A stretch of 64,000 bases of DNA from the NCBI GenBank assembly GCA_001606155.1, contig LODT01000028.1, positions 406,735 through 470,734 on the forward strand, written 5' to 3'. Under the pieces are notes generated by a model. It ran no database searches. It saw nothing but the letters and a program-made list of their open reading frames with translations, and was not told the origin of the DNA. The position numbers and the translations under genes were made by a program. The stretch comes from Tieghemostelium lacteum (lineage: Eukaryota). Below are positions 4,932 through 60,498 of the stretch, in pieces (position 1 is the stretch's first letter; every line of letters begins with the position of its first letter).

Positions 4932-5124
4932 TACCTAAAAACCTAATTTATTAAGAACGTATATTTCCAAAAATAAAATCTTAACATTCACTTATTCTGG
5001 TGTTTGCAAGAAATAATTATAAACAATCTAAAAAAAATTTAAATTTTTTTATTTTGATATAAACACAGTCTTACCCACACACAAATAAAACCATAAAACC
5101 TTATTTAGGAAATTATATAATGAA

Positions 5125-7240: not shown

Positions 7241-7654
7241 TTTAATTTTTAAGTAAATTATTTTGCACTAAATAGCTTTAAATCTTCCTTAGTGTTCGAT
7301 TTAGCTGTCAACCAGCATTAAATTGTAGATATGTTAATTAAAAAGGGTAAGAAAAAGGTTTTAAAATCTTATTCACTAGAGGTAGCGGGATTAAACCCCA
7401 AATATGCAGAAGATATCAAAATATATTTAACTAAAATTTCTAATAAATTGAACAACCTCAAATACAATCAATAAGTCTAACAGCTCTTCAGCAATAGTGA
7501 ATAACAACAATTTGATGAATTTTTTAAAAGACTTTAAGATTCATTTTATTTTTTTTTTAAGTTGCTAAGAAAAATATCTGAAATTTGATTACTTTTTAGA
7601 AGGAAGAAGGACAATCTTTCGAATTTTTTTTTTTTGATATTTCTTCATTTTAAA

Positions 7655-9181
7655 ATGAGAATAGTAAACAGTATTTTAGTTTTACTGTTTATATGTATTG
7701 TTGTCAACCAATGTATTGGTAAAACTATAGAAGTTCCAACTACTCAAAGACATTCTACAGTTGTGTCATCAGGACCATATGACAGTGGTTCAGGTGAAAA
7801 CTCTGCATCTGCATCAACAGCAACTGGAACTGGATATCAAACTACTAGATCTTCAACCACTGAATACACCACTCGAAGCAGTGGTCCATATGATAGTGGT
7901 TCAGGTCAAAACTCCGCCTCTTCATCAGGATCATCAGCATCTGCAACAGGATATCAAACTACCAGACCTTCAACCACTAAAAGATACACAACTCAAAGCA
8001 GTGGTCCATATGACAGTGGTTCAGGTCAAAACTCTGCCTCTTCATCAGGATCATCAGCATCTGCAACTGGATATCAAACTACCAGATACGCAACTACTAG
8101 AACCACCGAAAGCAGTGGTCCATATGACAGCGGTTCAGGTAAAAACTCTGCATCAGCCTCGTCAGCATCATCAGGATACGGTCCATATGACAGCGGTACA
8201 GGTAAAAGCTCTGCATCATCTTCAGCATCTTCTGGAACAGGATATCAAACTACCAGACCTTCAACTACTAAAAGATACACAACTCAAAGCAGCGGTCCAT
8301 ATGACAGTGGTTCAGGTAAAAACTCTGCATCTGCATCATCTTCAGCATCATCAGGATACGATAGCACAACTAGAAGATCAACTGATACATCAGGATTTGA
8401 TAGTGGAAGATCATCAACATTTAGACCACATAGTAGTAGTGGTCCATATGACAGCGGTTCAGGTCAAAGCTCTGCCTCTTCATCAGCCTCTTCAGATTCC
8501 GGAACAGGATATCAAACTACCAGACCTTCAACTACTAAAAGATACACAACTCAAAGCAGTGGTCCATATGACAGCGGCTCAGGTAAAAACTCTGCATCAT
8601 CATCAGCCTCTTCAGATTCTGGAACTGGATACCAAACAACAAGATATTCAACTACTAGAACCACAGAAAGCAGTGGTCCATATGACAGCGGTTCAGGTAA
8701 AAACTCTGCATCAGCATCATCTTCAGCATCATCAGGATACGATAGCACAACTAGAAGATCAACTGATACTTCTGGATTTGATAGTGGAAGATCATCAACA
8801 TTTAGACCACATAGCAGTAGTGGTCCTTACGATAGTGGTTCTGGTGGATCATCTGCATCAGGAACATCAGGATCATCATCAGGATATGACACAACTAAAA
8901 AATCCTCAGGACCATATAGTAGTGGATCATCAGGTGATATTCCAAATCTCCCAATTCCACCAGCTTCATCAACTCCACAACCAACACCAACTCCAACCCC
9001 ATCACCAAGTACTGTTGTAACACCACCAACTGAATCTGCTGATGTTTCCAACTCCAATTCCGAAGAACCTCCAACAACAACAGTTGGTATAATTTTTGGA
9101 TTCATTGTTTTCTCAACATCATTAATTTTCACTAGCATTTTCTTTAAAGCTATTTTTTGTAATACTTTAAATCAACATTGA
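7655..9181 (+). CDS. Secreted Ser/Gly/Thr-rich tandem-repeat protein with a hydrophobic C-terminus (GPI-signal-like)
   Basis: The ATG at 7655 starts the signal peptide MRIVNSILVLLFICIVVNQCIG. The unit SSGPYDSGSG[QK]NSAS..GYQTTRPSTTKRYTTQ is reiterated. A Pro/Thr linker (PQPTPTPTPSPS) and the hydrophobic tail FGFIVFSTSLIFTSIFFKAIFC follow. Confidence 0.75.
   Translation: MRIVNSILVLLFICIVVNQCIGKTIEVPTTQRHSTVVSSGPYDSGSGENSASASTATGTGYQTTRSSTTEYTTRSSGPYDSGSGQNSASSSGSSASATGYQTTRPSTTKRYTTQSSGPYDSGSGQNSASSSGSSASATGYQTTRYATTRTTESSGPYDSGSGKNSASASSASSGYGPYDSGTGKSSASSSASSGTGYQTTRPSTTKRYTTQSSGPYDSGSGKNSASASSSASSGYDSTTRRSTDTSGFDSGRSSTFRPHSSSGPYDSGSGQSSASSSASSDSGTGYQTTRPSTTKRYTTQSSGPYDSGSGKNSASSSASSDSGTGYQTTRYSTTRTTESSGPYDSGSGKNSASASSSASSGYDSTTRRSTDTSGFDSGRSSTFRPHSSSGPYDSGSGGSSASGTSGSSSGYDTTKKSSGPYSSGSSGDIPNLPIPPASSTPQPTPTPTPSPSTVVTPPTESADVSNSNSEEPPTTTVGIIFGFIVFSTSLIFTSIFFKAIFCNTLNQH
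7766..8850. repeat. In-frame coding tandem repeats (~120-nt unit nested in a ~390-nt higher-order unit)
   Basis: GGTCCATATGACAG[TC]GGTTCAGGT[CA]AAAACTCTGC recurs about 10 times. The block YDSTTRRSTDTSGFDSGRSSTFRPHSSSGPYDSGSG occurs twice about 390 nt apart. Confidence 0.85.
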
Positions 9182-13624: not shown

Positions 13625-13747
13625 TGTTACCAATCTATTTAAAAAGGGGTAGAGAAAGAGTAATGACAATACATTTGAAAATTTGGAAATTTCATATTGT
13701 TTTATTCTATCCTATTTAATTAATTATTATATATTATTTGAAAATAC

Positions 13748-18008: not shown

Positions 18009-20325
18009 TTACAATTGCAATTGCATAGTGGTATCAGCAACTTTATCATTCATTATCAAATCGTCATCATATTGGTGGTTTGAGACTATGGATTCATTAT
18101 GTTCATTATCATAATTATGGTGATGAGATGATTTTAAAGCTGAATTGAAAATTGGTTGTTGAAGAGGAGATGTGTTTCCACTACTACTACTACTACTACT
18201 TCCACTAGTTGAACTAAAATTACTGTGAACTGAACTTGTTGAATTTATAGACAACTGAGATGGCATTGGTTTTTTAAGATTACTATTAGTGTGCACTGAA
18301 TGTATTTGATTGAATTGGTTGATATTGTTTTCCTTGTTTTGCTTTTTCTTTAGTGCTGATGAACTGGTCTGGGTCTTCAAATGTGTAAGTTCAGAGATAA
18401 TAGGTTGTTTCAGTTTCTTTACAGCTCTTGGTGAGTTGTTATTTATAGGAGACAATGGGAACCGTTTCTTATTAGCTGTATTCTGTATCATTTTACCATA
18501 GGGTGAGGAAAGTAATTCTTGTTGTTTCAGCATTTGTATACGAGATGTTGGGGTTTTTGGTGTAGATGGTGTAGTAGTTTGTTGTTGTAGTTTCTTTTGT
18601 GGAGTTTTATTACCACTAGTAGAGGATGATGTACTAGTTTTATGTGAATTATTATTGTTACTGTTATTTTGACTATTACTACCATTACTAGTAGTAGATT
18701 GTTTATGATTTTGTAATAGTTTCTCTCTGTCTTTACGGATCTTTTCAGATTCTTTTAATTTTTTTTCATGTTCATATTGTTGGTGCATTAATTCCAAATA
18801 AGGAAACCCTTCATAACAAAATGGAGTTCCACGAGATTGATGCCATTGATGTAACTGTTTTTTCAGAGTCTCTTCAATTTGTGGGAGTTTCTGAAAGGTT
18901 TTTCTGAGTTTTTCTTCCTGGATAAATCTACCTCTATCGAATTTCTTGGAGAGTAGTCTTTCCTTATCACCAATAACAGTCTGTTCGTATTCAATCTTGT
19001 CATTTCTAATCTGTTCTCTCTTTTCAATGAGTGCTAACAGAGGTTTGGAAACCTCTAGAATCTCTTCAACTCTTTCCACTTCTCTCTCGTAGACTTCGAG
19101 TAACTCTTCACTTTCCTCCTCACAATTATGATTCTCATATATTTCATTTAACTGGTCCAGTGGTAAATGTAATTGAGCGTATATAACATGAATTCTTGAG
19201 ACTGCTCTGTTAATGTACTGACTAAGAGTAGCTTTTCTCAAATCGGATACTCTCTGAAGTTCCTCTTCACAAGCTTCGATGACATCGTATCCAAGTCCTG
19301 CTGTCTTTGAGAAGAATGATTCACGTTCGTCTTCAGGTACCTCTAATTTATCCCATAGTGATGTGATCTTTGTTGCATATTCTTTTACTATAATTTCATG
19401 TTCATTCTTGATTACTATTAATTTATCTCTCTTTTGTTCCAAAGTAGTCAAAGTACCCAAACTCAGACTTATTGGTGATTTTACATCTAAACTGTCTACC
19501 TGTGTCATCAAAAGTATTGATTGTTCAAATTCAGTTTCTGGTGAGAATCTTAGTTCTTCCCATAACTCTAATATCTCAATTGACAATTCCCTAATTGAAT
19601 TAAATTGTGTATCCTATAATATCATATTCCAAATATATTAGAAAATATACAATTTCCATCCATTCCTATACCCCCTATATTTACTCTTTGAATCTTTGTT
19701 GTATTTAAAATTTTTTGAACAGAAGATATTCTTTCCATTGAATAATCATTATGCATAGTGTCATCATGTGAATGTAAATTTGATTTCATCTCCATCTCTT
19801 GTGAAAGTTCATCAATTTTTGATTCCAAATCATCTATAATAATCATTCTATCTTGAATTCTTTTTCTCAATTTACTTAATTCTGATTCAATATATTGTGA
19901 TCTCTGTAATAAATTCAATGATGCCAATGTTTGATGACACTTTTTAAACCATTGTTAATATTATCCATAAACTATTCCAAACCATTACAAATCAACTAAA
20001 CCTACCTCTTTAACAGTCTCGCCTAATTCAGTAGTCATTGTACAAAGTGTTTCAAGTCCATTTATAATCTCTTTCACTATATCATCTTTCTTTTTCTCCT
20101 CACCTTTTAAAAGGTCAGTATAGATATTTAAAACCTGTAATTGAGCTCTGTTAATTTAAAACTAATGTTAATACCTAATGAATTTCAAATAATTATTCAA
20201 TCTATAATATGAGAGATTACAAACAAATCACATAATGATTTTCTATAATTTTGGTCAAATCCAATCTCATCCCAAACTCTAACTGTTTTTGTTAAGAGAT
20301 CTTTAATGTCCAATTCTATACTCAT
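18009..20325 (-). CDS. Microtubule-bundling protein of the PRC1/Ase1/MAP65 family, four exons
   Basis: Proposed exons are 20221..20325, 20006..20134, 19685..19939 and 18009..19613, with introns of 86, 66 and 71 nt. The last two junctions are phase-checked against the track ORFs. MAP65/Ase1 signature blocks are present (SLWDKLEVPEDERESFFSK, spectrin-like helical region), followed by a basic S/T/N-rich tail. The exon 1/2 junction is less certain. Confidence 0.75.
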
Positions 20326-20510
20326 TTTCAATAATTAGAAAACTTTGAACAATTAAATGTGGTTGTGTTTTAATCAATTTAATGAAAAGAAGTGTAATTT
20401 CAAAAAAATTTAATCTAACGGTCATTAATTTTTTGAATTTTTAAAAAAGACCGCAATATTATAATAACTTCAATAATTCTTTGGACATTTTTAAAATGGT
20501 GTATTAATAC

Positions 20511-20529
20511 AAGGCGCACTAAAATAATA
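20511..20529 (+). promoter_or_regulatory. AAGGCGCACT + AAAATAATA motif, copy 1 (186 bp upstream of the PRC1-like ATG)
   Basis: An isolated GC-rich 10-mer in AT-rich intergenic DNA, identical to the one at 23626. Confidence 0.4.
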
Positions 20530-20557
20530 CTAAATAAATGATCTTTTTACTAATACA

Positions 20558-20758
20558 TTACAATGTATTATAAATATATTTGTAAAAAATCTCTTTTCTT
20601 ATTTCACTAAATGGAAGTTTATCAGAAGTTTGGATTTGTAGTATATCAAATAAATTAATTGGCAAAGATGGTGCTGGATCTTGTTTAAGAATTTCTTCAT
20701 GTAAAGAGTAATGAAAATAAGTATCACAAACATTAGGTTTACCTTTTCGAGGGAAAAT
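20558..20758 (-). other. Coding-looking 66-codon open frame without an ATG (possible unannotated exon)
   Basis: IFPRKGKPNVCDTYFHYSLHEEILKQDPAPSLPINLFDILQIQTSDKLPFSEIRKEIFYKYIYNTL* lies between the PRC1-like and DBR1 genes. The only nearby ATG (20806, MAERNKG*) cannot be joined by an intron of realistic length. Confidence 0.2.
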
Positions 20759-20965
20759 CTAGAACATTTTAGTTCAACCTTTGTTTCTTTCTGCCATGCA
20801 CACCTTCCTCTAGGTTTATGATGGTAAATAAAGAAAATTTCTTTTAATAAATTAGATTTCTTTTAATCTTAATTATTTAGATGAAAATGTTATTTTTCTG
20901 AAAAAAATCACTATTTAATTAATAACTTCAATTTTTTTTTTATTCTTCATTGATATAATTAAAAA

Positions 20966-22395
20966 ATGAGAATTGCAATAGAAGGTTGTTGTCATGGAGA
21001 GGTAGAGACTATATATAATTCATTAGTTCATATAGAACAAAAAACCAATTCAAAAATAGATTTATTACTTTGTTGTGGTGACTATGAGGTTAATATTTAA
21101 AAACTCTACCATTTGAAGATTCAAATATATATATTAATATGATACTAAATGATTTATAGGCACTTAGAAATCAGAGTGATTTAAAGTCATTAGCAGTTAA
21201 AGATAAATATAGACAAATGGGATCATTTTATAAATATTATAGTGGTGAATTAGTTGCACCGATATTGACATTGGTAATTGGAGGTAACCATGAATCTAGT
21301 AACTACTTTTCAGAGTTACCAAATGGTGGTTGGTTAGCACCAAATATATATTATATGGGTAGAAGTGGTGTTGTGACTTTTGGTGGTTTACGTATCATGG
21401 GAATTTCAGGTATTTACAAACAATATGATTATCAAAAAGGTTATTATGAACGTAAACCTTTTTCAGAGGACCACATACGTTCTATATATCATGTCAGAGA
21501 AATGGATATACTTAAACTATCTGCATTGTCTGTGCCTAGACTAGACATTGCCTTTTCGCACGATTGGCCACTTTCCATTGTAGAATATGGAAATAAAGCA
21601 AAACTACTAAAACAAAAGAAAGGTTTTGAGGAAGACATAAACAAAGATGCTTTAGGTAATCCAGCAACTTTACAATTACTTAGACTTCACAAACCAAAGT
21701 TTTGGTTTTCAGGTCATTGTCATGTAAAGTTCCCAGCAGTTTATCCACATACCACTAAACAAGATCAACAGAATTCCAATGAAAACCTAACTGCAAACAC
21801 ATCTGATAATGATGATAGTAACAATGTGTTGGAAACCAGGTTCTTGGCATTGGATAAAGTACTACCAAATAGAGATTTTCTTCAAGTTTTAGATTTTGAA
21901 GCTAAAGGCTCACTAAAACTATGTTATGATATTCAATGGTTACTGATACTTGCCAAAACACAAGCACAAGTAAAACAACATACAAAATCTACAGCATCAC
22001 CATTGAACCCTAATGACTTTAAAAACCTCTATACTGTAGAGGAAATTGAAAGATTTGAAGGTAGATTTGAACTATTACATCAATTAAAAAACCCAAACAA
22101 CAATAATAAGGAGTTTAGTAAACAAGATATTCTTGAAATACCAAAGAATTTTGTACAGAATGCTTATTGTCATAATGCAAATGATCTAAAGAATATATGC
22201 GCATTTGATGATCCATATTTTGATAACCCACAAGAGATTGTTTTGAATAATTTAATCAATGTTTTATCGAGTAACACAGAAATCAATGAAGAAACACTGA
22301 AACAATTAAATGTAGAAACCTTCTCCAAATCAGTATCTCAACAAAATAAGAAAATTAAATATGTTGATGATTCTGAAATCAATATAGATGATTAA
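20966..22395 (+). CDS. dbr1: RNA lariat debranching enzyme DBR1
   Basis: Exons 20966..21088 and 21160..22395, with intron 21089..21159 (GTTAAT..TTATAG). Metallophosphoesterase motifs are present: MRIAIEGCCHGE, LLLCCGDYE, VIGGNHE, FSHDWP, SGHCH. A DBR1-type C-terminal domain follows. Confidence 0.9.
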
Positions 22396-22471
22396 TAAAA
22401 GTTACACCCCCCATCCTAATATATTTATATTTTGTATAAATGAAACCTGTTACAGTATTCCTTTTATTTTA

Positions 22472-23501
22472 TTATTTAGATTCAGTTGGTGGTGTAGTAG
22501 TTGTATTAGTTTGTGGTACCACTGGTGCTGGTATATTTAAAAGTTTTCTCTTTTGTTCCCATTCATCGGTTTCTCTCTTATTGGTAGTATTCAATGGTTT
22601 ACCAGTTTGAATAGCTTCGATTTCCAGTCTGGTCAATTTAATAGATTCATAAGAGTAATCCATAAAGGCTTCACAAGCAACTGGTACAATTTTTCTAATG
22701 AGAGCAAAAATAGTATTGGCATAATCTCTAATTTCCTTTTGACTGTGTGAGTCCATACGCAATTTAAGGAAATGGAAGAGATTGTGTAAATCAATTTTCC
22801 AGTACCATTCAGTGTATACACTAACTGGTAAACCAATTCTACCAAGTTCTCTACTCAAGCCCTTATCCAAAAGTTCATTATAGGTCTTGTAAGAGCTCTC
22901 TACTTGATCCAAATAGGCAAGAAATTCTTCTGCAGTCTTAGTTTCGAGTTGTTCCTCTCCACCTTGTCTGTTGCTAGCTGATTGTTTTCTGACATCTTCA
23001 ACTTTGGGATGATAAAATTTGTCTGGCATAACAGAATATCTAGCAGAGTATTCGTTAACATTAGCAGTTCTATGTCTAATCCATTGTCTAGCAATGAAAA
23101 CTGGCATTACACAATGAAATTTAAATTCAACCATTTCAAATGGTGCTGTTATTTAATGAGTATAAAGATACTTGGTATTAGTATACAAAGGGATATAATG
23201 TTATATTATAGTGTAAGATTAACATACATGTATGTTGATGTCTGAATAGGTAACGAATTAAACCTTTATCTTCGGAGACTTTTTTGGTACCTGCACCATA
23301 GGAGACTCTTGCAGCTTGTACAATAGAGAAATCAGCAGTTTGACCTACTGGTGCAAGTCTTGGCATACAATCTACCAATGCTACACTTCCATGATCGTGT
23401 ACTTTTACTTCATGACGATGGCTTCCACCCATAACATCATAGTATTCACATTCTGGTTTAGTAATATTAATTTGAATTTGATCAATTTCGTTTTGAATCA
23501 T
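22472..23501 (-). CDS. thyA: Flavin-dependent thymidylate synthase ThyX (Thy1)
   Basis: Exons 23228..23501 and 22472..23145, with intron 23146..23227 (82 nt, GTATGT..AACAG). Splicing gives ..LFRHQHT|[11 protein letters not shown].. followed by the ThyX motif [18 protein letters not shown]. Confidence 0.92.
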
Positions 23502-23625
23502 TTTTACTTTGAATTTTTAATATAATAAATATTTATATAAATAAGAATTATAGATTAGATTATACTGTACACAATAATGAAAATTTAAAAAAAAAAAAAG
23601 TTAAATTAGAATCAAATAAAAAAAA

Positions 23626-23649
23626 AAGGCGCACTCATAAAAATAATAT
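23626..23649 (+). promoter_or_regulatory. AAGGCGCACT + (CAT)AAAAATAATA motif, copy 2 (125 bp upstream of the ThyX ATG)
   Basis: The same 10-mer as at 20511, in the same orientation, preceded by an A-run. Confidence 0.4.
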
Positions 23650-23864
23650 AAAAACTGGTTTCAATTGAATACAGATTTTAATCATGAGTTATATAATCAA
23701 ATAGTTAAATTTTTGTAATTCATTTAACAAAAAATAGATAATATAATAGTAAGAAATTAATTGAATCATTCTATATTTTTAAAGAGAAAATACATCTAAA
23801 TTGATAGTGAACAATAGATTAGATAAGAGTAAATGCAAAGTTTAAACCTGTAGAGGTTGGAGAA

Positions 23865-24866
23865 ATGAAAAAAAAAGCTGGATCTATAGGTACCACTTTT
23901 GAAGGATGCCTAAGTATGAGTAGTTTTGCTGTAAATGAAATGATATCATATATTGAAAGACAACCAAATGAACCCTCTGATTTACACAAAGAGCATCAAA
24001 TTAAAGATTACAAAATCTCAGTTGGAAAAGATTCAAATTGTAACGTAAAATATCTCACTGGTAAAATTACATGTCCTAGACAGAATGCATCTTCTGGAAA
24101 TAGATTTCCATGTGCAGAAGACATTAGTAAACTTGTTAAATATTACCATCATCCAAGTCTAGATATCACCAATAACAAAAAAGAAACTATTCAAATACTA
24201 AAAGAAAACCATTATATTTGGCCTACTATTAGACAAGATTGTGAAGAAAAAATTAGTCATTGTAAACAGTGTATAAATCCAGTTCAAGAACTACAATCGG
24301 TAACAATACCTATACCCAATGTTCCTCCCACTCAAAGTTCCTCACCTCCGCATGCTGCTAATAACTTTATAGTCACACCAACACCAACATCACCCACCAA
24401 ACCACTTTTTCCAATAAAACCATCAATACCCATTAAAAATGAAATTACACCAGACCCTTACAATAATAGATATCAACCATATATAACTACACGAAACAAC
24501 CAACACCAACTTATGCAATCAACATCTTATAGACACAATCCAAATGACTTAAACCCAATGCCACATCATAACTATCCTCTTTATTATCATCCTAGTAACC
24601 ATAACAATAATAGCAATGGTTTTAGTGGAACACCTCAGAGACAGGTAAGGTCTCAAACATCAACAGAAATGCCGTTAGCCTATGTTGATGATATCAAAAG
24701 AAAGGTAAAAGTGGAAGTGGAGGAAAAGATGAAAGAAATCTATACTGCCAAGACCAAAATTCACATGGACAAGATTATTTCTCTTGAAAATCAAAATTCT
24801 CAACTCAAAAAGAATCTAACTGTAAAATTAGAATTATCAGAATACAAAAAGATATCAATAACATGA
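23865..24866 (+). CDS. Hypothetical protein with a degenerate retroelement integrase-type (H2C2-like) zinc-finger region, a P/N/H-rich linker and a C-terminal coiled coil
   Basis: 333-aa ORF. ISKLVKYYHHPSLDITNNKKETIQILKENHYIWPTIRQDCEEKISHCKQCIN follows the integrase N-terminal pattern H..H..KT...L...Y.WP....D.......C..C. No RT, RNase H or integrase core lies nearby. Confidence 0.45.
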   Translation: MKKKAGSIGTTFEGCLSMSSFAVNEMISYIERQPNEPSDLHKEHQIKDYKISVGKDSNCNVKYLTGKITCPRQNASSGNRFPCAEDISKLVKYYHHPSLDITNNKKETIQILKENHYIWPTIRQDCEEKISHCKQCINPVQELQSVTIPIPNVPPTQSSSPPHAANNFIVTPTPTSPTKPLFPIKPSIPIKNEITPDPYNNRYQPYITTRNNQHQLMQSTSYRHNPNDLNPMPHHNYPLYYHPSNHNNNSNGFSGTPQRQVRSQTSTEMPLAYVDDIKRKVKVEVEEKMKEIYTAKTKIHMDKIISLENQNSQLKKNLTVKLELSEYKKISIT

Positions 24867-40394: not shown

Positions 40395-41984
40395 TTAGTA
40401 AATGGATGAGTTTATTAGAACATTATATTTGGTGAATACATCCAATAAATCAATTTGAGTTAAACTGGGTTCTTTAGATAAATCAAAACAATTCATTTGT
40501 TGAATTGTTGTATTGATTCTAAAGAGTTCATTAAATTCTTTTACCATATCAGCTGTGAATTTAAAGGTATCTGACCTTGGAAGTGGTAGAATAAATGTAT
40601 GAAGAGTTTTGTTGATTGTTAGAATATCAATATATAGTTTACAATGATTATAATTGTTATTAAACATATACGAAAACCTTTTTATAGCTAACCCGGTTAG
40701 TGTGGTGTTGTAAGAGAGTGATGTTATAAATATGCCTAAATTATTTTCAATACTATTTACATAGGAACGGAGATCGTGTATATTATATCTTTGAACACTT
40801 GAATGTGGAATTGACAGAATTTGATTTAGAACACTTATATCCAATTCATAAAATTCAATAGTGTGAAGATTTTTAAGTGCAGAAAAATCATTAATCCCCA
40901 TTGAGCTTGTTAAATCTGGTAATGTGAGATACCGTAGATTTTTAAATTCTTTAACTTCATATTTACTAGCACCACTTACCCAAATGGATTTTATATTATC
41001 TTTATGTTTCCATAACTCTAATATCCTATCACCCTTAGTTGTGATGATAAGTTCTAGAGAATGAATCCATTGGTTTGATATATTATCTGGTAATGTTTCA
41101 TTGTTCCATTCTATATAAACTAAAATTAGAGTACCAGTTTTGATATTGGATAGAAAATCAACAACTACTTGATGTGAGGTGATTATATTTGCTGAGTCCA
41201 CCCTCAAACGTTGCAGATTCATTGATTGTGAAGCATGTTTTAATATTTCATAAACTTTATCGAAATTGTTTTCATCTTCATCTAAGACTATACCATGAAT
41301 TCCTAGATTTTGGCAATTCAAAGAGTTTTCCAAGAGAGACTTTAACATCCATTGTGACATTTTAATTCCATCTATAATTATTTTAGTTAGAGAATTGGGT
41401 TGAAAGGAATTTGTATTTTCACCAAAACAGGATAAAGACAAAAAATGTATGCTGATAACTCTTCTATTTTGAATTAACTCTCCAATTCTATTAAAATCTT
41501 CTAATTGTGGCACCACAAAAATTTTAATATTGATGTCAATGTTAGATAATGATTTTAGTTGGTTGATTAGATATTCTTGGGATTTTAAAAATGAAGTTTC
41601 AACAACTATAGATTCTGAATTCTTGAAATGAGATATTGTTTGATTTATATTTTTTCTTTGTTCATCATGGATTTCAATCTGACTAACTTGATCTCTAATG
41701 ATTTCATTTAAATGTTTATAATAACAATTAGGTAAAATGAATCTATAATTATACCATTTATATTTATTTGCAAGTGCTATGAAATCAGGTACTAATTTAA
41801 CTGTTCTTGGTCTTTGTAAATTATTAACATGTCTATATCGTAATTTTACAATTATTGATTGGTTCCATTCTTTACTGATCAATGTATATTTTCGTAAAAA
41901 CATATAAACGTATTCAATATCTATTGAATGATTTAGAATTGGATCTAAAATATTAATTATCAGATAATTAGGTATCATCGCCAT
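40395..41984 (-). CDS. F-box-like / leucine-rich-repeat-like protein (intact copy B)
   Basis: 529-aa uninterrupted ORF. The N-terminus is F-box-like (IPNYLIINILDPILNH..LISKEWNQ). Irregular LRR-type periodicity follows (NLRYLTLPDL, LKNLHTIEFYELD...). Confidence 0.7.
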   Translation of the reverse strand: MAMIPNYLIINILDPILNHSIDIEYVYMFLRKYTLISKEWNQSIIVKLRYRHVNNLQRPRTVKLVPDFIALANKYKWYNYRFILPNCYYKHLNEIIRDQVSQIEIHDEQRKNINQTISHFKNSESIVVETSFLKSQEYLINQLKSLSNIDINIKIFVVPQLEDFNRIGELIQNRRVISIHFLSLSCFGENTNSFQPNSLTKIIIDGIKMSQWMLKSLLENSLNCQNLGIHGIVLDEDENNFDKVYEILKHASQSMNLQRLRVDSANIITSHQVVVDFLSNIKTGTLILVYIEWNNETLPDNISNQWIHSLELIITTKGDRILELWKHKDNIKSIWVSGASKYEVKEFKNLRYLTLPDLTSSMGINDFSALKNLHTIEFYELDISVLNQILSIPHSSVQRYNIHDLRSYVNSIENNLGIFITSLSYNTTLTGLAIKRFSYMFNNNYNHCKLYIDILTINKTLHTFILPLPRSDTFKFTADMVKEFNELFRINTTIQQMNCFDLSKEPSLTQIDLLDVFTKYNVLINSSIY

Positions 41985-46350: not shown

Positions 46351-46435
46351 TGTGTGTTTCTTTTGGTGTGTTGGGTTTTTTTTAGAAAATATACAAATAC
46401 AGGAGAGTGACGCGAAGTACACACCCCACACACTC
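46351..46435. promoter_or_regulatory. GT-rich and CA-rich G-box-like pair upstream of the HssA-like gene
   Basis: TGTGTGTTTCTTTTGGTGTGTTGGGTT lies at 46351-46377 and ACACACCCCACACACTC at 46419-46435. Confidence 0.35.
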
Positions 46436-47979
46436 TAATTGATTTTTATAATTACTTTTTTCTTTTTTTTTGATTCTCTGATGATGACATTATTATTGAA
46501 AATTGGATTATAGTTTGGTGGTATACCATTTTTATAGTATGCCACTCTTTTTACTTTGGGATTTTGTAAATTTGGTATATGTTCACAAGTTAGATTATAT
46601 TGACCAAAGTTCTTGATAATTTTCATGTCCTTATCAGGTGATGGTACTGAATATTCAATGGAAATACCTAGAAGTTTAGGAGCACCTTCTGGTAAATGTG
46701 AGAAGAGTTTCTCAATGCTATTCTCTTGACTTAGATAATCAGGTGTAATCAAGTGTAATTGTTCTAGTGATTTACTCTGTGATATGGCTTTTGAAAAACA
46801 CCATCCTAATGATCCGTATAGTTCATATCTTGTTATATTCATTGTAAGGATTCTCAGTGACTTACAATCAGTTAGCATGGCTTTAAAGTTTGTACTGGTT
46901 GATAATGAACATTCTTCAGATAGTGTTAGGTTATCAATACGAAGATTTACCAATGACTCTGATTTGTTATTGAGATGTAGATAACTTTCAATACATCCTT
47001 GAAAAGCATGTATAGTAAATGATGTAATATGTTTCAGAAATATCCATCTAGCAAAATAATTTTCATCAGTTATCCAATAAAGATCCAGTGTCTTTATATT
47101 TTCATATTTGTTTAAAAGTGGGAATAGTTCGTTTAGTTCTTGGTATGCATGAACCTTCAATGTCAGAGTAGACAGATTTGTAAGAGAATCAAACATCAAA
47201 AATACAGAAGAAGATATATAACTAATAGTCAGATTCTTTAGTGACTCTACCTGGTTATTGATAATCCTTGGATCCATAGTATAATCATCTGAGATAAACT
47301 TTAATCTCTCTAATCTATTTGGAGCATAAGTTGACAAAAAGTCAATTGAAGTCAATTTACTAGTTGGATGGTGAAAGTTAATTAAACTGGTTGTATTGGG
47401 TTTCTTGAATTCTAAGTGAAATGATGTTATTGATTTTTCAACTGCCAATAACAAAACTTTAAATGTGTCAACATGGTCACGGTTATCGAGTGTCAGAGTA
47501 AGATGTTCTAGATTTGGTATAACCATTGTAGATTGAAAAGGTGGAAGTAAACCATTTATACCAACACTATTCAATTTTAGAGTTTTTAACACAGGAAAGT
47601 TTTTTACAGATAACAAGTTGTGTGATAATTGATTGTAATGGATATCTAATGACTCTACGTGTACAAATAGTGTTGATAAACCTTTAACGAAGGTTAAACC
47701 TGCCATGTTATTTACTGCCATATTTGATATTATCAATGAGCTAGGTAACCCAAGTAAACAGTAAGGACTACGTAAATGTTCAACAGCTTCTCTAATATTA
47801 CCATTATTTTTCATTAAATCCCAAACTGATATAAATTTGAAATAGTGTTTATGTAGATATTCAAATAGTGCCTTATTGACTAACCCTAAATGCATCTTAT
47901 ATCTAAAATCATAATAATCTGTATCAACTACATAATGAATAATTTGATACAACAATACATGAGGTATTGGAAAATACAT
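46435..47979 (-). CDS. F-box-like / LRR-like protein (a family distinct from 40395..41984)
   Basis: 514-aa ORF. The N-terminus FPIPHVLLYQIIHYVV is followed by repeated L..L.L/N-type segments (LKTLKLNSVGINGL, LEHLTLTLDN, LKNLTISYIS, LSTLTLKVHA...). Confidence 0.65.
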   Translation of the reverse strand: MYFPIPHVLLYQIIHYVVDTDYYDFRYKMHLGLVNKALFEYLHKHYFKFISVWDLMKNNGNIREAVEHLRSPYCLLGLPSSLIISNMAVNNMAGLTFVKGLSTLFVHVESLDIHYNQLSHNLLSVKNFPVLKTLKLNSVGINGLLPPFQSTMVIPNLEHLTLTLDNRDHVDTFKVLLLAVEKSITSFHLEFKKPNTTSLINFHHPTSKLTSIDFLSTYAPNRLERLKFISDDYTMDPRIINNQVESLKNLTISYISSSVFLMFDSLTNLSTLTLKVHAYQELNELFPLLNKYENIKTLDLYWITDENYFARWIFLKHITSFTIHAFQGCIESYLHLNNKSESLVNLRIDNLTLSEECSLSTSTNFKAMLTDCKSLRILTMNITRYELYGSLGWCFSKAISQSKSLEQLHLITPDYLSQENSIEKLFSHLPEGAPKLLGISIEYSVPSPDKDMKIIKNFGQYNLTCEHIPNLQNPKVKRVAYYKNGIPPNYNPIFNNNVIIRESKKKKKVIIKIN

Positions 47980-49008: not shown

Positions 49009-49234
49009 AAATATAGAGATAGACATCAACCAACATTCATTTTATATATATTTAAACCTAACCCACACACAAATATCATTAAAGTTTTTTTTTAATTTTT
49101 TATTTTGATTATTCCTTTAATAGAACTTAGAAGAGTAACTATATAATATATACTCTCAATTCATTAATTCCCTCACCCAGATTATTTTTTTTATTGTTTT
49201 TTTTTTAGTTTTTGTTTATTTTTGTAAAAAGGAT

Positions 49235-49500: not shown

Positions 49501-50114
49501 CAAAGGGGAATTACAAAAATGCATATATTACCAATTTATTAATGTTTTTCCTACATAAATATCTTATGGGGTACTTGCATCCAAACCGAACTGGAGTATA
49601 AAAAAAAAAAAAATAATTTAGTTCCTTCTATTTCTTTTTTCTTTTAATTTAAATAATTTCAATCTAAATCGAACATCATTTATTTCAAAAAAAATTATAA
49701 ATTTTTATTCAATTGTAATTTTATTATAAAAATATTTTAAAACAAATCCTTATTTGTATTTCTATTCTCAAATTAAAAAGAAAAGGTTAAATTTCTTATT
49801 CTTTTTAATATAAATTTTAAATTAATTAAAAAACAATCAACACCATTAAAAAGGTTAAAAACAACACTTTTTATTGTATTTTAGGATCTTTAGGAATTTT
49901 GTGATTCTATTTCAATATCACATCAACGAACATTATAATCAAATTTATTTGTAAGTATATATATATGTCTGAAATTCACTACCCCCACTATTTACAACAC
50001 CACAATAGAAGACCTATTTTAATTACCCTCCATATATCATTAAAACCCAAATTTGTCATTTTCAAATGAATAACCTATTTGTAAACTAGTTTTAACATTA
50101 TGATAAAATGCTTA

Positions 50115-54669: not shown

Positions 54670-57600
54670 TTATTTAGTTTTTCTGAGATTATCTTTGGTT
54701 TTGTAAAATTGAGAAAGTGATTCTAGGGATTTAGTGCACTTTAAGTTATTTTGTAGACATACTCTTGCCCATTTTGATAGTTTTTCACTGTACAATGATT
54801 TTGAGTATCTTTCATCAACTAACAATATAGAACCATAATCATTACGATGTCTGATACATCTACCTATAGCTTGATTGAGTGCACGGAATGCTTGTAAATT
54901 GTACCAATAGTGTCCGTCAATGGCCTTCTGTTCTTGTTGTTTTATAGTGTCATTATAAGCTTTCTTTAATTTAACCTTGATATCACCAAGATTCGGATAT
55001 GGAATACCAACTACTATAACACCTCTGGCATATTCATCAGAGAAATCAATACCTTCTGAGATCTTTCCTCTGCAGACTGCCATCAGAATGGCACCGTCTC
55101 TACCAGGTGGATTATCTCTGATGGTTACATAGTAGTCTGATAGAGTCTCTTTAAAGTTACTAGAACGTTCTCTAAAGATTTTCTTTACATTATTCAAACG
55201 ATCATAGAGTTTAGTGGATTTCCAACGTGCTTCAATTTTATCTAAAAAACCATAGGATGGGAAAAACAAAAGGACACCATGAGGTATAAGTTTACAATGC
55301 TCCAGAATAGCCTCTCCAAGTGCATCTTGAAATTGTAAAGATTCTGAGGGTTTGGAAGTACAATCCATTTTGATTTGATCATTTTGACCTGCGAAACCTA
55401 GGGTGTTGATCCAAACTCTAGATTTAATGTCACTGAGATTTCCCAGTTCAGCAGTGATTGGAAATGGAGCTGAGAGTTCGAATGCAAAACTATTCAATGG
55501 CGTAAGGGTACCACTGGTCAATATAACAGTTCTAACCTGATCGAATATTAATGATGAAAACGCCACCCTAGGTGACATTGCCCAGATACCCAGTGTATGA
55601 GCCCACTTTGTTCCACTCTGTCCTTTACCAGTTGGCACAAAAACAGAGTTCTTTTGAATGACCAATTTGTAATCTTTCAGAAATGTATAATCTCTCTCGA
55701 ATATAAATTTTATAGATTTGACAAAAGAGTCCAAGAGAATAACAGTTTTAGGTGACACAAATTCATAGAGTACATCACCCTTATTTCCAAAAAAGTCATC
55801 ACCTTTCTTAAGATCTAGTTCACTGGATAGCATAGCAATGTTGGTTTCCAGATCGGGAAATGTAAATTTAGAAACACCCATCTCTTCCAAAGCACTTAAT
55901 ATATCATCCTTTTTCTCTAGAACCAATGCATATTTTTCAAAATCCACTTTCTCTACAGACGCTAGTTTCTTCTTGAACCATGTATTTATCTTCTCCAATT
56001 GTCTAAATATATAGGTCATCGATTGTAAACGTGTGGGATGTTTGGTTGTTAAATCGTTGTATAGTGTAGGGTTCTCCAAAGTACTTCTAATCTGTTGATA
56101 GGATTCAAATAGTTCTTCAAGAGACACATTAAAACTTGCAGCATCCATAAATGCATCCTCTACATTATGTGCCTCATCAAAAATCACAATGGAATTTTTC
56201 ACCTTTTTTTTAAATGCTTTTCTAATGGAGGGATCAATGAGATAATTGTATGGACAGAATATCAAATCTGCAAACTCAATCATATCCTTACTGGCAAAGA
56301 ATGGACATTCTCTAGTTTTCTTTCCTTCCAATATAAGATCCTCTATATCCCATACTGCCAATTCACCACCAGCCTTAAACTTTGATGATTTTGCTATAGA
56401 ATATGTATTTTTTACAAATTTACATCCACTGTCTCTTATCAATTTCATACATCTTTCTTTTTTCTTTGCAATATTCTTTAGTTCTGGATTGACACAATAG
56501 TGATCTCTTGACCCCAACACCAACATATTAGGTTGATAAACTGTCTTTTTTAATTCCTTTGTCAACTGTTTAATTTGTGAATGTGTTCTACTACAATAAA
56601 ATATAGTTGGAACTGGTGGTGCCTTAAAACTATCTTCGTTATCTTCTATATTATCAACATTACCATTTCCATTATTATTATTATTATTATTTTCATTATT
56701 TTTGTTTGGATTATATTTATATTGTGAAATAAATTCATCAAAATCATTGTTCATATTATTATTATTTTCATTTTTGATTTTGTTTGGATTATATTTATAT
56801 TGTGAGACGAATTCATCAAATCCATCATCCATTGTTTTTCGTTTTAATCCATTTGCATTGTCATTGCTATTATTATTATTATTTAAATGTCCAAATCTAT
56901 TGAGTGCATCTTTAAATTCTACAAAATCAGTTTGTAATTTATCTGCAAGTTGTTGTGATATTTGACTAGTTTGTAAATCGTCTAGAGGTGTAGTGGCGGA
57001 GGCTTGTGGGTCAATTTTAACTTTTTTTTGTTGGTTTTTCATCTTTTCCATGAGCTCTGTTTCTTGATGCTTTAGCAAGTTCTTTTGCTTGCTCTAATAA
57101 CTTATTTGCCTTTTGTTTTTGAGTGAACTGCCATTCCAATGTACTTGCCAAGAGAGTTAGTGTTTTTCCAGTGCCTGTTGCAGACTCCAATACACAATGT
57201 GTAGAGTTATCCAATGATTCCAATATATGAGAAATCATTGTTGACTGACATTCATATGGTTCATATGGGAATTTAACTTTATAACCTTTGATTAAATAGG
57301 TATTATCACCTAAATTCGTACATATTGGTGTTTGTATTTTTGGTGGTGATTTACTAGTATCATTATTATTATTGTTGTTATTTTTGTTAAGATTTAATTT
57401 AAGTGTAGATGATGATGATGATGTAGTGGTTGTTGTAGTTGTAGTGGTAGGTTTTTGAGGGAGTTTTAATTTCAATGTCAATTTAGGTTGAGAATTTTGA
57501 GATGAACCTTGTGATGAGTTTTGTAAATTTTCAGTTGGAGTTGGGGTTGGAGTTGGGGTTGAGGTTACTGTATCTTGAGATTGTTGTGAACATTTTGAAG

Positions 57601-57712
57601 AGTCTTGTGTATTTGGTAGAGGTGGTGGATTCAAATTTTGTGATGCATTTTGAGTGGTGTTTTTATTTAGTGAGAGTTTAAGTGCTGGTAATTTTAATGG
57701 TCTTTTGTCCAT
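54670..57712 (-). CDS. Fe-S DEAH helicase of the XPD family, most similar to FANCJ/BRIP1 (RTEL1 not excluded), with an apparent frameshift near 57022-57029
   Basis: Motif I is FPYEPYECQSTMISHILESL..CVLESATGTGKTLTLLASTLEW, in ORF 57017..57712. A spacer of about 180 aa follows. ORF 54670..57078 then carries IFYCSRTHSQIKQL, four Fe-S cysteines (YCVN..RCMKLIRDSGCKF..ECPFF), DEAH (VIFDEAHNVED) and WYNLQAFRALNQAIGRCIRHRNDYGSILLVDERY. The two ORFs overlap by 62 nt in different frames around an A8 run. Confidence 0.8.
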
Positions 57713-57970: not shown

Positions 57971-59301
57971 ATGTCATCCAATTATAATAACAATTGGTAC
58001 TTTACCAAAAAACAGGTACAGAAACACTTTGGAGATTCTAAACATGAGATACTCTACAGAAGATCTTCTGCAACTTTTATTCAAGAAGTTGGAATAAAAT
58101 TGAAATTGTAAGAACCTTCTGATACTGGAAATTGAGTATTATAAAGGTTTAGTGTACTAATAACTATAATTCAGACCACAACTTACAATAGCTACAGCTA
58201 TAGCATATTTTCATAGATTCTTTATCAGACATCAATTAAAAGATCATGATAGATATGTACGAAATCTTATTCAATTCAGATCTAAATTGTCAATCTATAG
58301 AATGATTTTTTTATTAATCTCAAAACTCTTTATTGTTATTTAGATTGTTTCAACAGCTTGTTTGTTTTTAGCTGGAAAAGTTGAAGAAGCACATAGAACA
58401 CTTGTCGATGTTATAAATATCTCCTATAGAATAAAGAATAAGATTACAACACCAGGTTATGAAATGGATAAAAATGTATTTATATCTCCTAATCTACTAG
58501 ATTTTAAAACCCCCTATAGTGTATACTAACATGAAATTACTAATACCTCAGGAACTTGATGATATAAAAAGAAAAATTCTAGTTAGTGAACATCAAATTC
58601 TAACAACCATTGCATTTGATTTGGCGGTCGAACACCCATACAAATGTCTATTGGAATATATTAAACATATAGGAGGTAGTAAACATCTGTGTCAAGTAGC
58701 ATGGAATTTTGTTAATGATAGGTATGATATTATTATGATAAGTATATTCTTAGGAATGGACATTTATTAATATTGAAAAATGTATAGTTTAAGAACAACA
58801 TTATGTTTACATTACCCACCAGACTTGATATCATATGCATCGGTGTATTTAGCAACTAAATTCTTAAACTTACAATTGAGTTCTGGTGGTGATGTTAAAA
58901 AACAGTGGTGGGAAATTTTAAATATAAAATTAGAGGTATTAGAAGATATCTCTAAACAGATTTTGGATTTATACGAACCAGTTCCTAATGGAAATGCAAG
59001 TGCAACTAGTGGTACCTCTACTTCTAGTGCACCTCTTACACCAAATGGAAAACATAAAGAAAGTCCTTTGAAATCGGAGTCTTCCGCATCTAATGGTGCT
59101 GTAACTCCACAAATGGAAGTAACTATTCAACCACTAAAAACAGAAACTACACCAACTATAACAGATAGAGAAAGTTCACCAAATGCCAAAAGATCACAAC
59201 CTCCCTACAATTTAGAAACTAATCAACCTAAAGACAATTTGTATACTCCCTATAAGAAACCACATAACAGTGAATCTCCAGGATCTTTGAAACAAGAATA
59301 A
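57971..59301 (+). CDS. Transcription-type cyclin (cyclin K/T/L family), five exons
   Basis: Exons 57971..58107, 58175..58256, 58344..58475, 58552..58721 and 58788..59301 (1,035 nt, 345 codons; all junctions GT..AG and phase-checked against the track ORFs). The product contains NWYFTKKQ..., PQLTIATAIAYFHRFFIRHQLKDHDRY|IVSTACLFLAGKVEEAHR and a second cyclin fold, followed by an S/T/P-rich tail. Confidence 0.8.
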
Positions 59302-60113: not shown

Positions 60114-60315
60114 AAGTACAGTGTCTCCACTGGTGAATTACATTTACATTACCTGAATTTCAAAATTCAGATAATTTAATAAATTGTTGAAGATTATTCA
60201 TTAAATTATTATTTAAAAACTATTCATATTAAATTTAATGAATTGTAAGCAAAAGTGTAAATTTACCATTTTGTTTCAAGAAAATCATTGTGAGAAAGAA
60301 AATTCAATTTTTAAA

Positions 60316-60498
60316 GGTGTGGTGGTGATAGTAACATTGTGTTGATATTAAATTATATAGATAGTAATTTTATATATCAACCTCTTAATTAGTAGATAGT
60401 TTTTTTTAAAAAATGGTGTGGGTAGTGTGTGTTAATAAAAGACAATAACCACAAGTGACAAATCCAAAACCACACCCACAACACACCACCACACCTCA
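60316..60498. promoter_or_regulatory. GT-rich / CA-rich G-box-like cluster in the 1.7-kb region upstream of the 61800 gene
   Basis: GGTGTGGTGGTGA lies at 60316-60328, TGGTGTGGGTAGTGTGTGTT at 60413-60432, and AAAACCACACCCACAACACACCACCACACCTC at 60465-60498. More lie at 61193-61213 and 61535-61554. Confidence 0.35.

What the first reader, a model, noticed from the sequence alone, without database searches (positions are those of the whole stretch)
20511..23649. Identical GC-rich 10-mer AAGGCGCACT (plus AAAATAATA) upstream of two cell-cycle genes
AAGGCGCACTAAAATAATA lies at 20511-20529, 186 bp upstream of the PRC1/Ase1-like ATG. AAGGCGCACTCATAAAAATAATA lies at 23626-23648, 125 bp upstream of the ThyX ATG. 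I did not notice any other GGCGC in the 64 kb. By rough base-frequency reasoning, a specific 10-mer with six G/C positions should appear far less than once here by chance. Both downstream genes (a mitotic spindle bundler and thymidylate synthase) are classic cell-cycle-regulated genes. The GGCGC core resembles the core of E2F/DP sites (TTTSSCGC), although the A/T flank is on the opposite side from the canonical site. This may be a lineage-specific cell-cycle promoter element.
Basis: partly seen in the sequence, partly recalled or inferred. Interest (0 to 1): 0.6.

Follow-up and report, generated by a model that had tools for sequence, protein, structure and literature searches.

The report
E2F-type promoter site, two cell-cycle genes
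The repeated AAGGCGCACT word is real and is most likely an ordinary E2F/DP (retinoblastoma-pathway) binding site in the promoters of the spindle gene ase1 and the thymidylate synthase gene thyX of the social amoeba Tieghemostelium lacteum; related species carry E2F-like sites, several of them textbook ones, at the same promoter positions.

Summary
AAGGCGCACT occurs exactly twice (20511-20520, 23626-23635). These are the only two GGCGC in the 64 kb window. They lie 186 bp and 125 bp upstream of the ATGs of ase1/PRC1 and thyX, both on the minus strand. The window is from Tieghemostelium lacteum.

In D. discoideum both orthologues are RblA (retinoblastoma)-repressed and peak in late G2 (PMC3386910, Table S2).

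I fetched the orthologous loci from seven other dictyostelids. The canonical E2F core SSCGC lies within 400 bp upstream of the ATG in 9 of 10 promoters (P about 3e-9). Without the two discovery sites it is 7 of 8 (P about 1e-6). Exact TTTSSCGC occurs 6 times in 264 kb, and 4 of those are in these promoters. An unbiased k-mer search ranks GGCGC and AGGCGC first.

There is no surrounding repeat and no Rfam match.

The best reading is an E2F/DP site of the RblA regulon. It has a species-specific flank: the T-tract of the textbook site is missing. This is a new member of a known kind and only moderately interesting. Binding and genome-wide enrichment in T. lacteum could not be tested.

The parts
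20511..20520 (+). Motif copy 1, AAGGCGCACT (E2F-like core GGCGC at 20513-20517). It reads AGTGCGCCTT in the sense of ase1, 186 bp upstream of the ase1 ATG.
20521..20529 (+). AAAATAATA flank directly following copy 1.
   Evidence: The 9-mer occurs 6 times per strand in the window.
23626..23635 (+). Motif copy 2, AAGGCGCACT (core GGCGC at 23628-23632), 125 bp upstream of the thyX ATG, in the same orientation relative to its gene as copy 1.
23640..23648 (+). AAAATAATA flank of copy 2, separated from the 10-mer by 4 extra bases (CATA).
18009..20325 (-). ase1/PRC1 (MAP65_ASE1) gene, the presumed target of copy 1. Its D. discoideum orthologue DDB_G0280249 is RblA-repressed and peaks in late G2.
22472..23501 (-). 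thyX (Thy1, FAD-dependent thymidylate synthase) gene, the presumed target of copy 2. Its D. discoideum orthologue thyA DDB_G0280045 is RblA-repressed and peaks in late G2.
20966..22395 (+). DBR1 (lariat debranching enzyme), divergent neighbour of ase1. Its ATG is 455 bp from copy 1. It is probably not the target, because the E2F-like site stays with ase1 in species where DBR1 is not the neighbour.
20416..20421 (+). TAACGG (Myb/MSA-like word), 96 bp upstream of the ase1 ATG. A possible partner element.
23865..24866 (+). Uncharacterised ORF divergent from thyX, with a weak Integrase_H2C2 hit. It shares the intergenic region that holds copy 2.

Best explanation
The two copies are binding sites for the E2F/DP heterodimer. 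Through them the retinoblastoma orthologue RblA represses ase1 and thyX outside the proliferative window and releases them in late G2.

Dictyostelids have no G1, and S-phase and mitotic genes are induced together in one late-G2 wave. That is why a spindle gene and a nucleotide-synthesis gene can share one element.

Shown here:
- The sites exist and are the only GGCGC in 64 kb.
- They sit 125-186 bp upstream of the start codons.
- The core fits the E2F core (SGCGS).
- Orthologous promoters in seven other species carry E2F-type sites, several of them canonical, at equivalent positions and almost nowhere else in the intergenic DNA of those loci.

Taken from the literature:
- The D. discoideum orthologues are RblA-repressed and peak in late G2.
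- e2f and tfdp2 orthologues exist in T. lacteum.

Inferred:
- That E2F/DP physically binds AAGGCGCACT.
- That RblA control holds in T. lacteum.

The identical flanks (AA..ACT plus AAAATAATA) probably reflect a local flank preference or a degenerate A-tract in place of the textbook GCGCCAAA.
For: Sequence and position:
- exact sites; GGCGC is unique to them.
- gene identities and ATGs.

Literature:
- thyA and ase1 are both in the RblA-repressed, 'max late G2' table of PMC3386910. [quoted passage not shown]
- (PMC4862756): the E2F/DP RRXYD helix reads a GCGC core; the family consensus is GCGSSAAA; the PBM-derived E2F-only 8-mer is NNSGCGSN. AAGGCGCA matches that last pattern position for position.
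- (PMC6873476): e2f and tfdp2 orthologues are present in all taxon-group representatives, including D. lacteum.

Orthologous promoters, distance to the ATG in brackets:
- thyX: C. fasciculata GGCGGGAAA (-198); D. purpureum GCGCCAAA (-257) and GGCGCACTAA (-205); A. subglobosum GCGCGCCAAA (-160); D. firmibasis AAACGCGCG (-193); P. violaceum CCGCGC (-405).
- ase1: H. album TTTGGCGCC (-310); A. subglobosum TTTAGGCGCG (-167); D. purpureum AATCCCGC (-291); D. citrinum ACCCGC (-291).

Statistics:
- SSCGC lies within 400 bp of the ATG in 9 of 10 promoters, against a per-locus background of 0.04-0.35 (P=2.8e-9).
- 7 of 8 without the discovery sites (P=1.2e-6). Intergenic SSCGC sites in these loci lie almost only at thyX and ase1 promoters.
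- exact TTTSSCGC occurs 6 times in 264 kb, 4 of them in these promoters, which make up about 1.8% of the DNA.
- in an unbiased k-mer search GGCGC is the top 5-mer (6 of 12 promoters, expected 0.68, P=1.7e-6) and AGGCGC the top 6-mer (5 of 12, expected 0.18, P=2.6e-8).

Other points:
- The orientation relative to the gene flips between T. lacteum and D. purpureum, as expected for a DNA-level factor site.
- The site stays with thyX or ase1 when the neighbouring gene changes.
Against: - Neither T. lacteum copy matches the full textbook consensus TTTSSCGC / GCGSSAAA in either orientation. The T-tract is missing: the copies read AAGGCGCA, or AGTGCGCC on the other strand (one search finds no TTTSSCGC or TTSSCGC in the window).
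- No binding or expression data exist for T. lacteum itself.
- Only two T. lacteum promoters could be examined, so the genome-wide test was not possible.
- The best block in the H. album thyX promoter (CCGCCAAT) fails the SSCGC criterion and could equally be a CCAAT box.
- The D. citrinum/D. firmibasis ase1 site (ACCCGC) is a weak match.
- The within-window alignment test alone is only P about 0.03.
- The RblA table held in the library is truncated, so I cannot exclude that other window genes are RblA targets that lack the motif.
Confidence: 0.75

Rival explanations
1. The sites are bound by a different, possibly dictyostelid-specific, sequence-specific factor that recognises the longer word (A)AGGCGCACT, alone or with the AAAATAATA flank. 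E2F is not involved.
For: - Five flank positions are identical between the two copies in addition to the core, and the same AAAATAATA follows both.
- GGCGCACTAA recurs in the D. purpureum thyX promoter.
- The textbook T-tract is absent.
Against: - Most orthologous promoters carry sites whose flanks differ completely but which match the canonical E2F consensus (GGCGGGAAA, GCGCCAAA, TTTGGCGCC, GCGCGCCAAA).
- What is conserved is the SSCGC core, not the ACT flank.
- By my own estimate from base composition, given a GGCGC core, finding ACT after one of about ten oriented cores is not unlikely (roughly 0.1).
- AAAATAATA is not conserved next to the sites in other species.
Confidence: 0.12
2. Chance. 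Two GGCGC-containing words happen to share flanks in AT-rich intergenic DNA and have no function.
For: - Two GGCGC in 64 kb is within expectation.
- The alignment block is reached by 14 of 500 shuffles.
- Other GC-rich 10-mers also recur in non-coding DNA.
Against: - Both copies are in promoters of genes whose orthologues belong to one regulon.
- The same class of site recurs at the same place in 7 of 8 independent orthologous promoters (P about 1e-6).
- It tops an unbiased k-mer search.
Confidence: 0.04
3. The element serves the divergent neighbours (DBR1 and the ORF at 23865), or acts as a generic bidirectional-promoter or nucleosome-positioning GC island, rather than serving ase1 and thyX.
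For: Both copies lie in intergenic regions shared with a plus-strand gene. In H. album DBR1 and ase1 are also divergent neighbours and share the TTTGGCGCC site.
Against: - In D. purpureum, D. citrinum and D. firmibasis, ase1 is not next to DBR1 yet keeps an E2F-like site.
- The upstream neighbour of thyX differs between species (CMS1, Serinc, a cyclin-like gene, unknown ORFs), yet the site stays with thyX.
- Copy 1 is 186 bp from ase1 but 455 bp from DBR1.
- DBR1 was not found in the RblA table, although that table is truncated.
Confidence: 0.06
4. The two copies are remnants of a dispersed repeat or transposon end, or part of a small non-coding RNA gene.
For: The ORF next to copy 2 has a weak integrase zinc-finger hit.
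Against: - No repeat family extends beyond the short block.
- There is no Rfam match at E<=1 in 19900-24300 and no tRNA in the window.
- The word occurs nowhere else in the window.
Confidence: 0.02

Closest known systems
E2F/DP binding sites of RB-E2F-regulated promoters (consensus TTTSSCGC / GCGSSAAA; core read by the RRXYD helices)
   Same: - SGCGS core (GGCGC).
- Promoter-proximal position.
- Target genes are an S-phase nucleotide-synthesis gene and a mitotic gene whose orthologues are Rb-repressed.
- Canonical sites sit at the same place in orthologous promoters.
- The site works in either orientation.
   Different: - The T. lacteum copies lack the T-tract. An A-run precedes the core, and ACT plus a displaced A-rich stretch follows it.
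- Binding has not been demonstrated.
CDE/CHR and Myb-MuvB (DREAM) elements of animal G2/M promoters; plant MSA (AACGG) elements
   Same: - ase1/PRC1 is a G2/M gene.
- A TAACGG word is the second most enriched 6-mer in the promoter set and often lies within 10-60 bp of the E2F-like site.
- lin54 is RblA-repressed in D. discoideum.
   Different: - No TTYGAA lies at CHR spacing next to the T. lacteum sites, and TTTGAA is not enriched.
- thyX in T. lacteum has no TAACGG.
- The GGCGC word is E2F-like rather than CDE-like in most species.
Fungal MCB/SCB boxes (ACGCGT, CGCGAA) bound by MBF/SBF
   Same: Short CpG-containing boxes shared by G1/S genes, which overlap the E2F consensus.
   Different: - SBF/MBF-type APSES/KilA-N factors are listed as absent from Dictyostelia.
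- The motif has G, not C, before the CG, which is the E2F-specific position.

Membership tests
E2F/DP binding site (RB-E2F regulon) | Core GCGC flanked by S on both sides (SGCGS; PBM E2F-only 8-mer NNSGCGSN) | tested here: met
   Both copies read AAGGCGCA, which matches N-N-S-G-C-G-S-N. Consensus taken from PMC4862756.
E2F/DP binding site (RB-E2F regulon) | Full textbook consensus TTTSSCGC / GCGSSAAA, including the T-tract | tested here: not met
   There is no TTTSSCGC or TTSSCGC anywhere in the window. The consensus is met in 4 orthologous promoters: D. purpureum thyX, C. fasciculata thyX, A. subglobosum thyX and H. album ase1.
E2F/DP binding site (RB-E2F regulon) | Location in the proximal promoter of the regulated gene | tested here: met
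   186 bp and 125 bp upstream of the annotated ATGs. Transcription start sites are not known.
E2F/DP binding site (RB-E2F regulon) | Target genes respond to Rb/E2F and are periodically expressed | not testable with these tools
   There are no T. lacteum data. The D. discoideum orthologues thyA and ase1 are RblA-repressed and peak in late G2 (PMC3386910 Table S2).
E2F/DP binding site (RB-E2F regulon) | Conservation of the site class in orthologous promoters | tested here: met
   9 of 10 promoters (7 of 8 without the discovery sites), P=2.8e-9 and 1.2e-6. GGCGC and AGGCGC rank first in the unbiased k-mer search.
E2F/DP binding site (RB-E2F regulon) | Cognate E2F and DP proteins encoded by the organism | not tested
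   Not searched here. PMC6873476 reports e2f and tfdp2 orthologues in all group-representative species, including D. lacteum.
E2F/DP binding site (RB-E2F regulon) | Physical binding by E2F/DP | not testable with these tools
   Needs EMSA, DAP-seq or ChIP.
CDE/CHR (DREAM) tandem element | CHR (TTYGAA) 4 nt downstream of a GC-rich CDE | tested here: not met
   There is no TTYGAA adjacent to either copy. TTTGAA is not enriched in the promoter set. Only A. subglobosum thyX has GCGCGCCAAATTTGAA.
Dispersed repeat / mobile-element end | Similarity extending beyond the short word, with multiple copies | tested here: not met
   No repeat family includes the sites at >=14 nt. There are only two copies in 64 kb.
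Known structured RNA gene | Match to an Rfam covariance model | tested here: not met
   No match at E<=1 in 19900-24300.

The most novel reading that the evidence does not exclude
Dictyostelid E2F/DP, or E2F together with a partner, may prefer an extended site that differs from the animal and plant consensus. That site would be an A-preceded core followed by a purine-pyrimidine step and TAA or an A-tract: AGGCGC-RY-TAA, as in T. lacteum ACTAA, D. purpureum ACTAA and ATTAA, D. firmibasis/D. citrinum GTTAA and A. subglobosum GTTAA. It may often be paired with a nearby TAACGG Myb-type site.

Together these would form a composite module that drives the single late-G2 wave of both S-phase and mitotic genes. 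That module would also have captured thyX, which looks horizontally acquired from bacteria.
Probability: 0.15. Interest if true: 0.5.

Novelty: new member of a known kind. Interest (0 to 1): 0.3.

Why it matters
This result gives sequence-level evidence that the RblA/E2F regulon defined by expression in D. discoideum works through recognisable E2F-type sites conserved across the dictyostelid species sampled here.

One site class serves both an S-phase gene and a mitotic gene, which fits the organism's cell cycle without a G1 phase.

It also shows that thyX, a thymidylate synthase with very close bacterial relatives, carries a eukaryotic cell-cycle element.

In practice, (A)GGCGC/SSCGC within about 400 bp of the ATG stands out strongly in these AT-rich genomes. 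It could be used to predict E2F targets in dictyostelids.

None of this changes what is known about E2F biology in general.

Tried and rejected
- **Dispersed repeat or duplication:** The repeat finder on 19900-24300 found nothing that includes the sites.
- **ncRNA:** no Rfam hit and no tRNA.
- **Other E2F-like words in the window:**
  - TTTGGCGG at 58623 lies inside a coding exon of a cyclin-like gene.
  - TTTAATCCCGC at 7385 lies between a Ser/Gly-rich secreted-type ORF and small unassignable ORFs.
  - The FANCJ-like helicase and the cyclin-like gene share an intergenic region with no such site.
- **CHR (TTTGAA):** not enriched.
- **Extended flank SGCGC-RY-TAA:** I noticed it only after seeing the data. 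By my own rough estimate it is not significant once the core is given, so I keep it only as the novel reading.
- **T. lacteum gene calls:** the look-up by exact protein failed because P0121 is not on record.
- **A third RblA-target promoter:** Ctf4 is a strong RblA target. However, the A. subglobosum gene flagged with a WDHD1-type WD40 hit is a nucleotide-sugar transferase fused to WD40 repeats, not Ctf4, so I dropped it.
- **Literature:** searches for a described dictyostelid E2F or cell-cycle box sequence found none. A raw search for the string AAGGCGC returned only unrelated papers.
Full report
**What is there.** The window is AT-rich (30% G+C) dictyostelid DNA. The ThyX and Ase1 proteins it encodes are 100% identical to the annotated proteins of Tieghemostelium lacteum, formerly Dictyostelium lacteum.

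AAGGCGCACT occurs exactly twice, at 20511-20520 and 23626-23635 on the + strand. These are the only two GGCGC on either strand. GCGC itself occurs at only three places in 64 kb.

Copy 1 is followed directly by AAAATAATA. Copy 2 is followed by the same 9-mer after four extra bases.

Both presumed target genes are on the minus strand:
- ase1/PRC1 (Pfam MAP65_ASE1), ATG at 20325.
- thyX (Pfam Thy1), ATG at 23501.

The annotated N-termini confirm both start codons. The sites are therefore 186 bp and 125 bp upstream, and in the same orientation relative to their genes. Both intergenic regions are shared with a plus-strand gene: DBR1 (ATG at 20966, 455 bp from copy 1) and an uncharacterised ORF at 23865.

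**Is it more than chance?** Two GGCGC in 64 kb is not unusual in itself. The unusual parts are the identical flanks and the placement.
- With up to one mismatch, the 10-mer has 3 matches against 0.47 expected.
- A composition-aware local alignment of the two intergenic regions picks out exactly AAGGCGCACT----AAAATAATA as the best block. However, 14 of 500 dinucleotide shuffles score as high.
- Recurring GC-rich 10-mers are common in the non-coding DNA of this window: 14 against 0.29 expected. The others are CA-rich words or an AGGGGTAGAGA pair.

On within-window statistics alone the finding is suggestive, not compelling. The two copies are not part of a longer repeat and match no Rfam family.

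**Are the two genes co-regulated?** In D. discoideum, thyA (DDB_G0280045) and ase1 (DDB_G0280249) are both in the table of genes de-repressed in the rblA (retinoblastoma) mutant. Both are scored 'max late G2' after synchronisation (PMC3386910 Table S2).

[quoted passage not shown] This explains why a spindle bundler and a thymidylate synthase could share one element. The paper reports no promoter motif analysis; it only remarks that one Tdd-5 transposon contains a consensus E2F element.

I did not find the other window genes I could name in the held copy of the table (FANCJ-like helicase, PNKP, DBR1). That copy is truncated, so this is weak evidence.

**Orthologous promoters.** I fetched the thyX locus from D. 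firmibasis, D. purpureum, H. album, C. fasciculata, P. violaceum and A. subglobosum. I fetched the ase1 locus from D. purpureum, H. album, D. citrinum and A. subglobosum. The D. firmibasis and D. citrinum loci each also contain the other gene's promoter.

Each promoter carries one or two isolated GC-rich sites in otherwise very AT-rich DNA:

| Gene | Species | Site | Distance to ATG |
|---|---|---|---|
| thyX | C. fasciculata | GGCGGGAAA | -198 |
| thyX | D. purpureum | GCGCCAAA | -257 |
| thyX | D. purpureum | CTGGCGCACTAAC | -205 |
| thyX | A. subglobosum | GCGCGCCAAATTTGAA | -160 |
| thyX | D. firmibasis | AAACGCGCGTTAAT | -193 |
| thyX | D. citrinum | AGCGCGTTAAT | -192 |
| thyX | P. violaceum | CCGCGCTTAAA | -405 |
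| thyX | H. album | CCGCCAATTTT | -291 |
| ase1 | H. album | TTTGGCGCCTTTTT | -310 |
| ase1 | A. subglobosum | TTTAGGCGCGTTAAC | -167 |
| ase1 | D. purpureum | AATCCCGC | -291 |
| ase1 | D. citrinum / D. firmibasis | CACCCGCTAAAAA | about -290 to -320 |

**Statistics across species.**
- Using the core of the textbook E2F consensus (SSCGC, both strands) as an a-priori pattern, 9 of 10 promoters have a site within 400 bp of the ATG. The background is 4-35% of 400-bp windows in the same loci (Poisson-binomial P=2.8e-9).
- Without the two T. lacteum discovery sites it is 7 of 8 (P=1.2e-6).
- In the intergenic DNA of these loci, SSCGC occurs almost only at these promoters. It is the single intergenic site in L004, L005 and L006. 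In L007 and L001 there are two intergenic sites, and they are the thyX and ase1 promoters.
- Exact TTTSSCGC occurs six times in all 264 kb fetched. Four of the six are in thyX or ase1 promoters, which make up about 1.8% of the DNA.
- An unbiased k-mer enrichment over 12 lineage-independent promoters ranks GGCGC/GCGCC first among 5-mers (6 of 12, expected 0.68, P=1.7e-6). It ranks AGGCGC/GCGCCT first among 6-mers (5 of 12, expected 0.18, P=2.6e-8). Both survive correction for the number of words tested.

The site stays with thyX and ase1 when the neighbouring gene changes. Its orientation relative to the gene is not conserved: GGCGCACT is on the sense strand in D. purpureum thyX and on the antisense strand in T. 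lacteum. Both observations point to a DNA-level factor site that belongs to these two genes.

**What it most likely is.** The E2F/DP winged-helix heterodimer reads a GCGC core through its invariant RRXYD helices. The family consensus is GCGSSAAA. Protein-binding-microarray data give NNSGCGSN as the E2F-specific 8-mer, with a strict G before the CG (PMC4862756). AAGGCGCA fits that pattern exactly.

e2f and tfdp2 orthologues are reported in all dictyostelid taxon-group representatives, including D. lacteum. APSES/KilA-N factors, the fungal MBF/SBF type, are absent from Dictyostelia (PMC6873476).

I therefore read the two copies as E2F/DP sites of the RblA regulon (confidence about 0.75).
- Shown here: the sites, their position, the core match and the cross-species conservation.
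- Taken from the literature: RblA dependence of the orthologues and the presence of the factor.
- Inferred: binding, and regulation in T. lacteum itself.

**How it differs from the textbook site.** Neither copy has the T-tract. In the H. album ase1 site, read on the other strand (AAAAAGGCGCCAAAC), the same A-run + GGCGC is followed by the canonical CAAA. In T. lacteum the A-rich stretch is displaced: GGCGC-ACT-AAAATAATA in copy 1 and GGCGC-ACTCAT-AAAAATAATA in copy 2.

The ACT flank recurs once, in D. purpureum thyX. Several GCGC-type sites share a purine-pyrimidine-TAA continuation. I saw this only after looking at the data, and given a core it is not clearly beyond chance. I keep it as the most novel reading that is not excluded (probability about 0.15).

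**Rivals.**
- A non-E2F factor that reads the long word (0.12). This is disfavoured because the orthologous sites conserve the core and not the flank.
- Chance (0.04). This is disfavoured by the cross-species tests.
- An element serving the divergent neighbours (0.06). This is disfavoured by the changes in neighbouring genes and by the distances.
- A repeat or RNA gene (0.02). This was tested and not found.

**Verdict.** The element is an ordinary E2F-type site rather than a new, lineage-specific kind of element. It is a new member of a known kind and of moderate-to-low interest (0.3).

The genome-wide enrichment test, binding assays and reporter assays remain to be done.

Noticed in passing
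window 20416-20421; L002 about 9757; L003 about 9650; L005 about 381; L008 about 9820: TAACGG/CCGTTA (Myb or plant-MSA-like word) is the second most enriched 6-mer in the thyX/ase1 promoter set (5 of 12, expected 0.39, P=1.7e-5). It usually lies 10-60 bp from the E2F-like site, for example in D. purpureum thyX (GCGCCAAATTATTTAACGG) and A. subglobosum ase1 (CCGTTAAAATTTAGGCGCG). It may be a Myb-type partner element.
   Followed up: partly
window 5073-5087 and 49061-49075; 60315-60327 and 60486-60498; 13132; 51399: CA/GT-rich GC islands recur in non-coding DNA. ACCCACACACAAATA occurs identically twice, and there is an inverted pair AGGTGTGGTGGTG / CACCACCACACCT about 170 bp apart. From memory, they resemble the C/A-rich or G-box elements known from Dictyostelium promoters.
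   Followed up: no
window 13640-13655 and 60533-60548: AAAAAGGGGTAGAGA occurs twice on the + strand. GGGGTAG also occurs on the other strand at 49979 and 51383. Its meaning is unknown.
   Followed up: no
window 22472-23501 (thyX): Dictyostelid ThyX is 70-73% identical to bacterial ThyX proteins, many of them from planctomycete-type metagenome bins. This fits the horizontally acquired origin which, from memory, has been proposed for this gene. The gene now carries a eukaryotic E2F-type promoter site and an intron.
   Followed up: partly
window 18009-23501; L006 7758-12441; L001 10001-13274; L002 10001-12704: Gene order around these genes is partly conserved. DBR1 and ase1 are divergent neighbours in T. 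lacteum and H. album. thyX and DBR1 are tail-to-tail neighbours in T. lacteum, D. firmibasis and D. purpureum. thyX and ase1 lie within about 10 kb of each other in D. citrinum and D. firmibasis.
   Followed up: partly
window 46411-46414: This is the only CGCG in the window (GAGTGACGCGAAGTAC, an MCB/SCB-like word). It lies just downstream of the stop of the minus-strand ORF at 46435-47979. It has not been assigned to any gene.
   Followed up: no
window 7380-7395: An isolated TTTAATCCCGCTACC (minus strand) is the only other intergenic SSCGC in the window. It lies about 250 bp upstream of a Ser/Gly/Thr-rich repetitive secreted-type ORF (7634-9181) and about 290 bp upstream of small minus-strand ORFs. 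No cell-cycle gene is evident nearby.
   Followed up: partly
window 54670-57712 (minus) and 57972-59301 (plus): A FANCJ/BRIP1-like helicase (E=3e-130 to PDB 9ej9) and a cyclin-like gene (cyclin C-terminal domain hits) are divergent neighbours with a 260-bp shared promoter that has no E2F-like word. The TTTGGCGG at 58623 is inside a cyclin coding exon.
   Followed up: partly
window 23865-24866 and 40395-41984: ORFs with weak hits to the integrase zinc-binding domain (H2C2) and to reverse transcriptase. They may be remnants of retroelements, one of them directly beside the thyX promoter.
   Followed up: no
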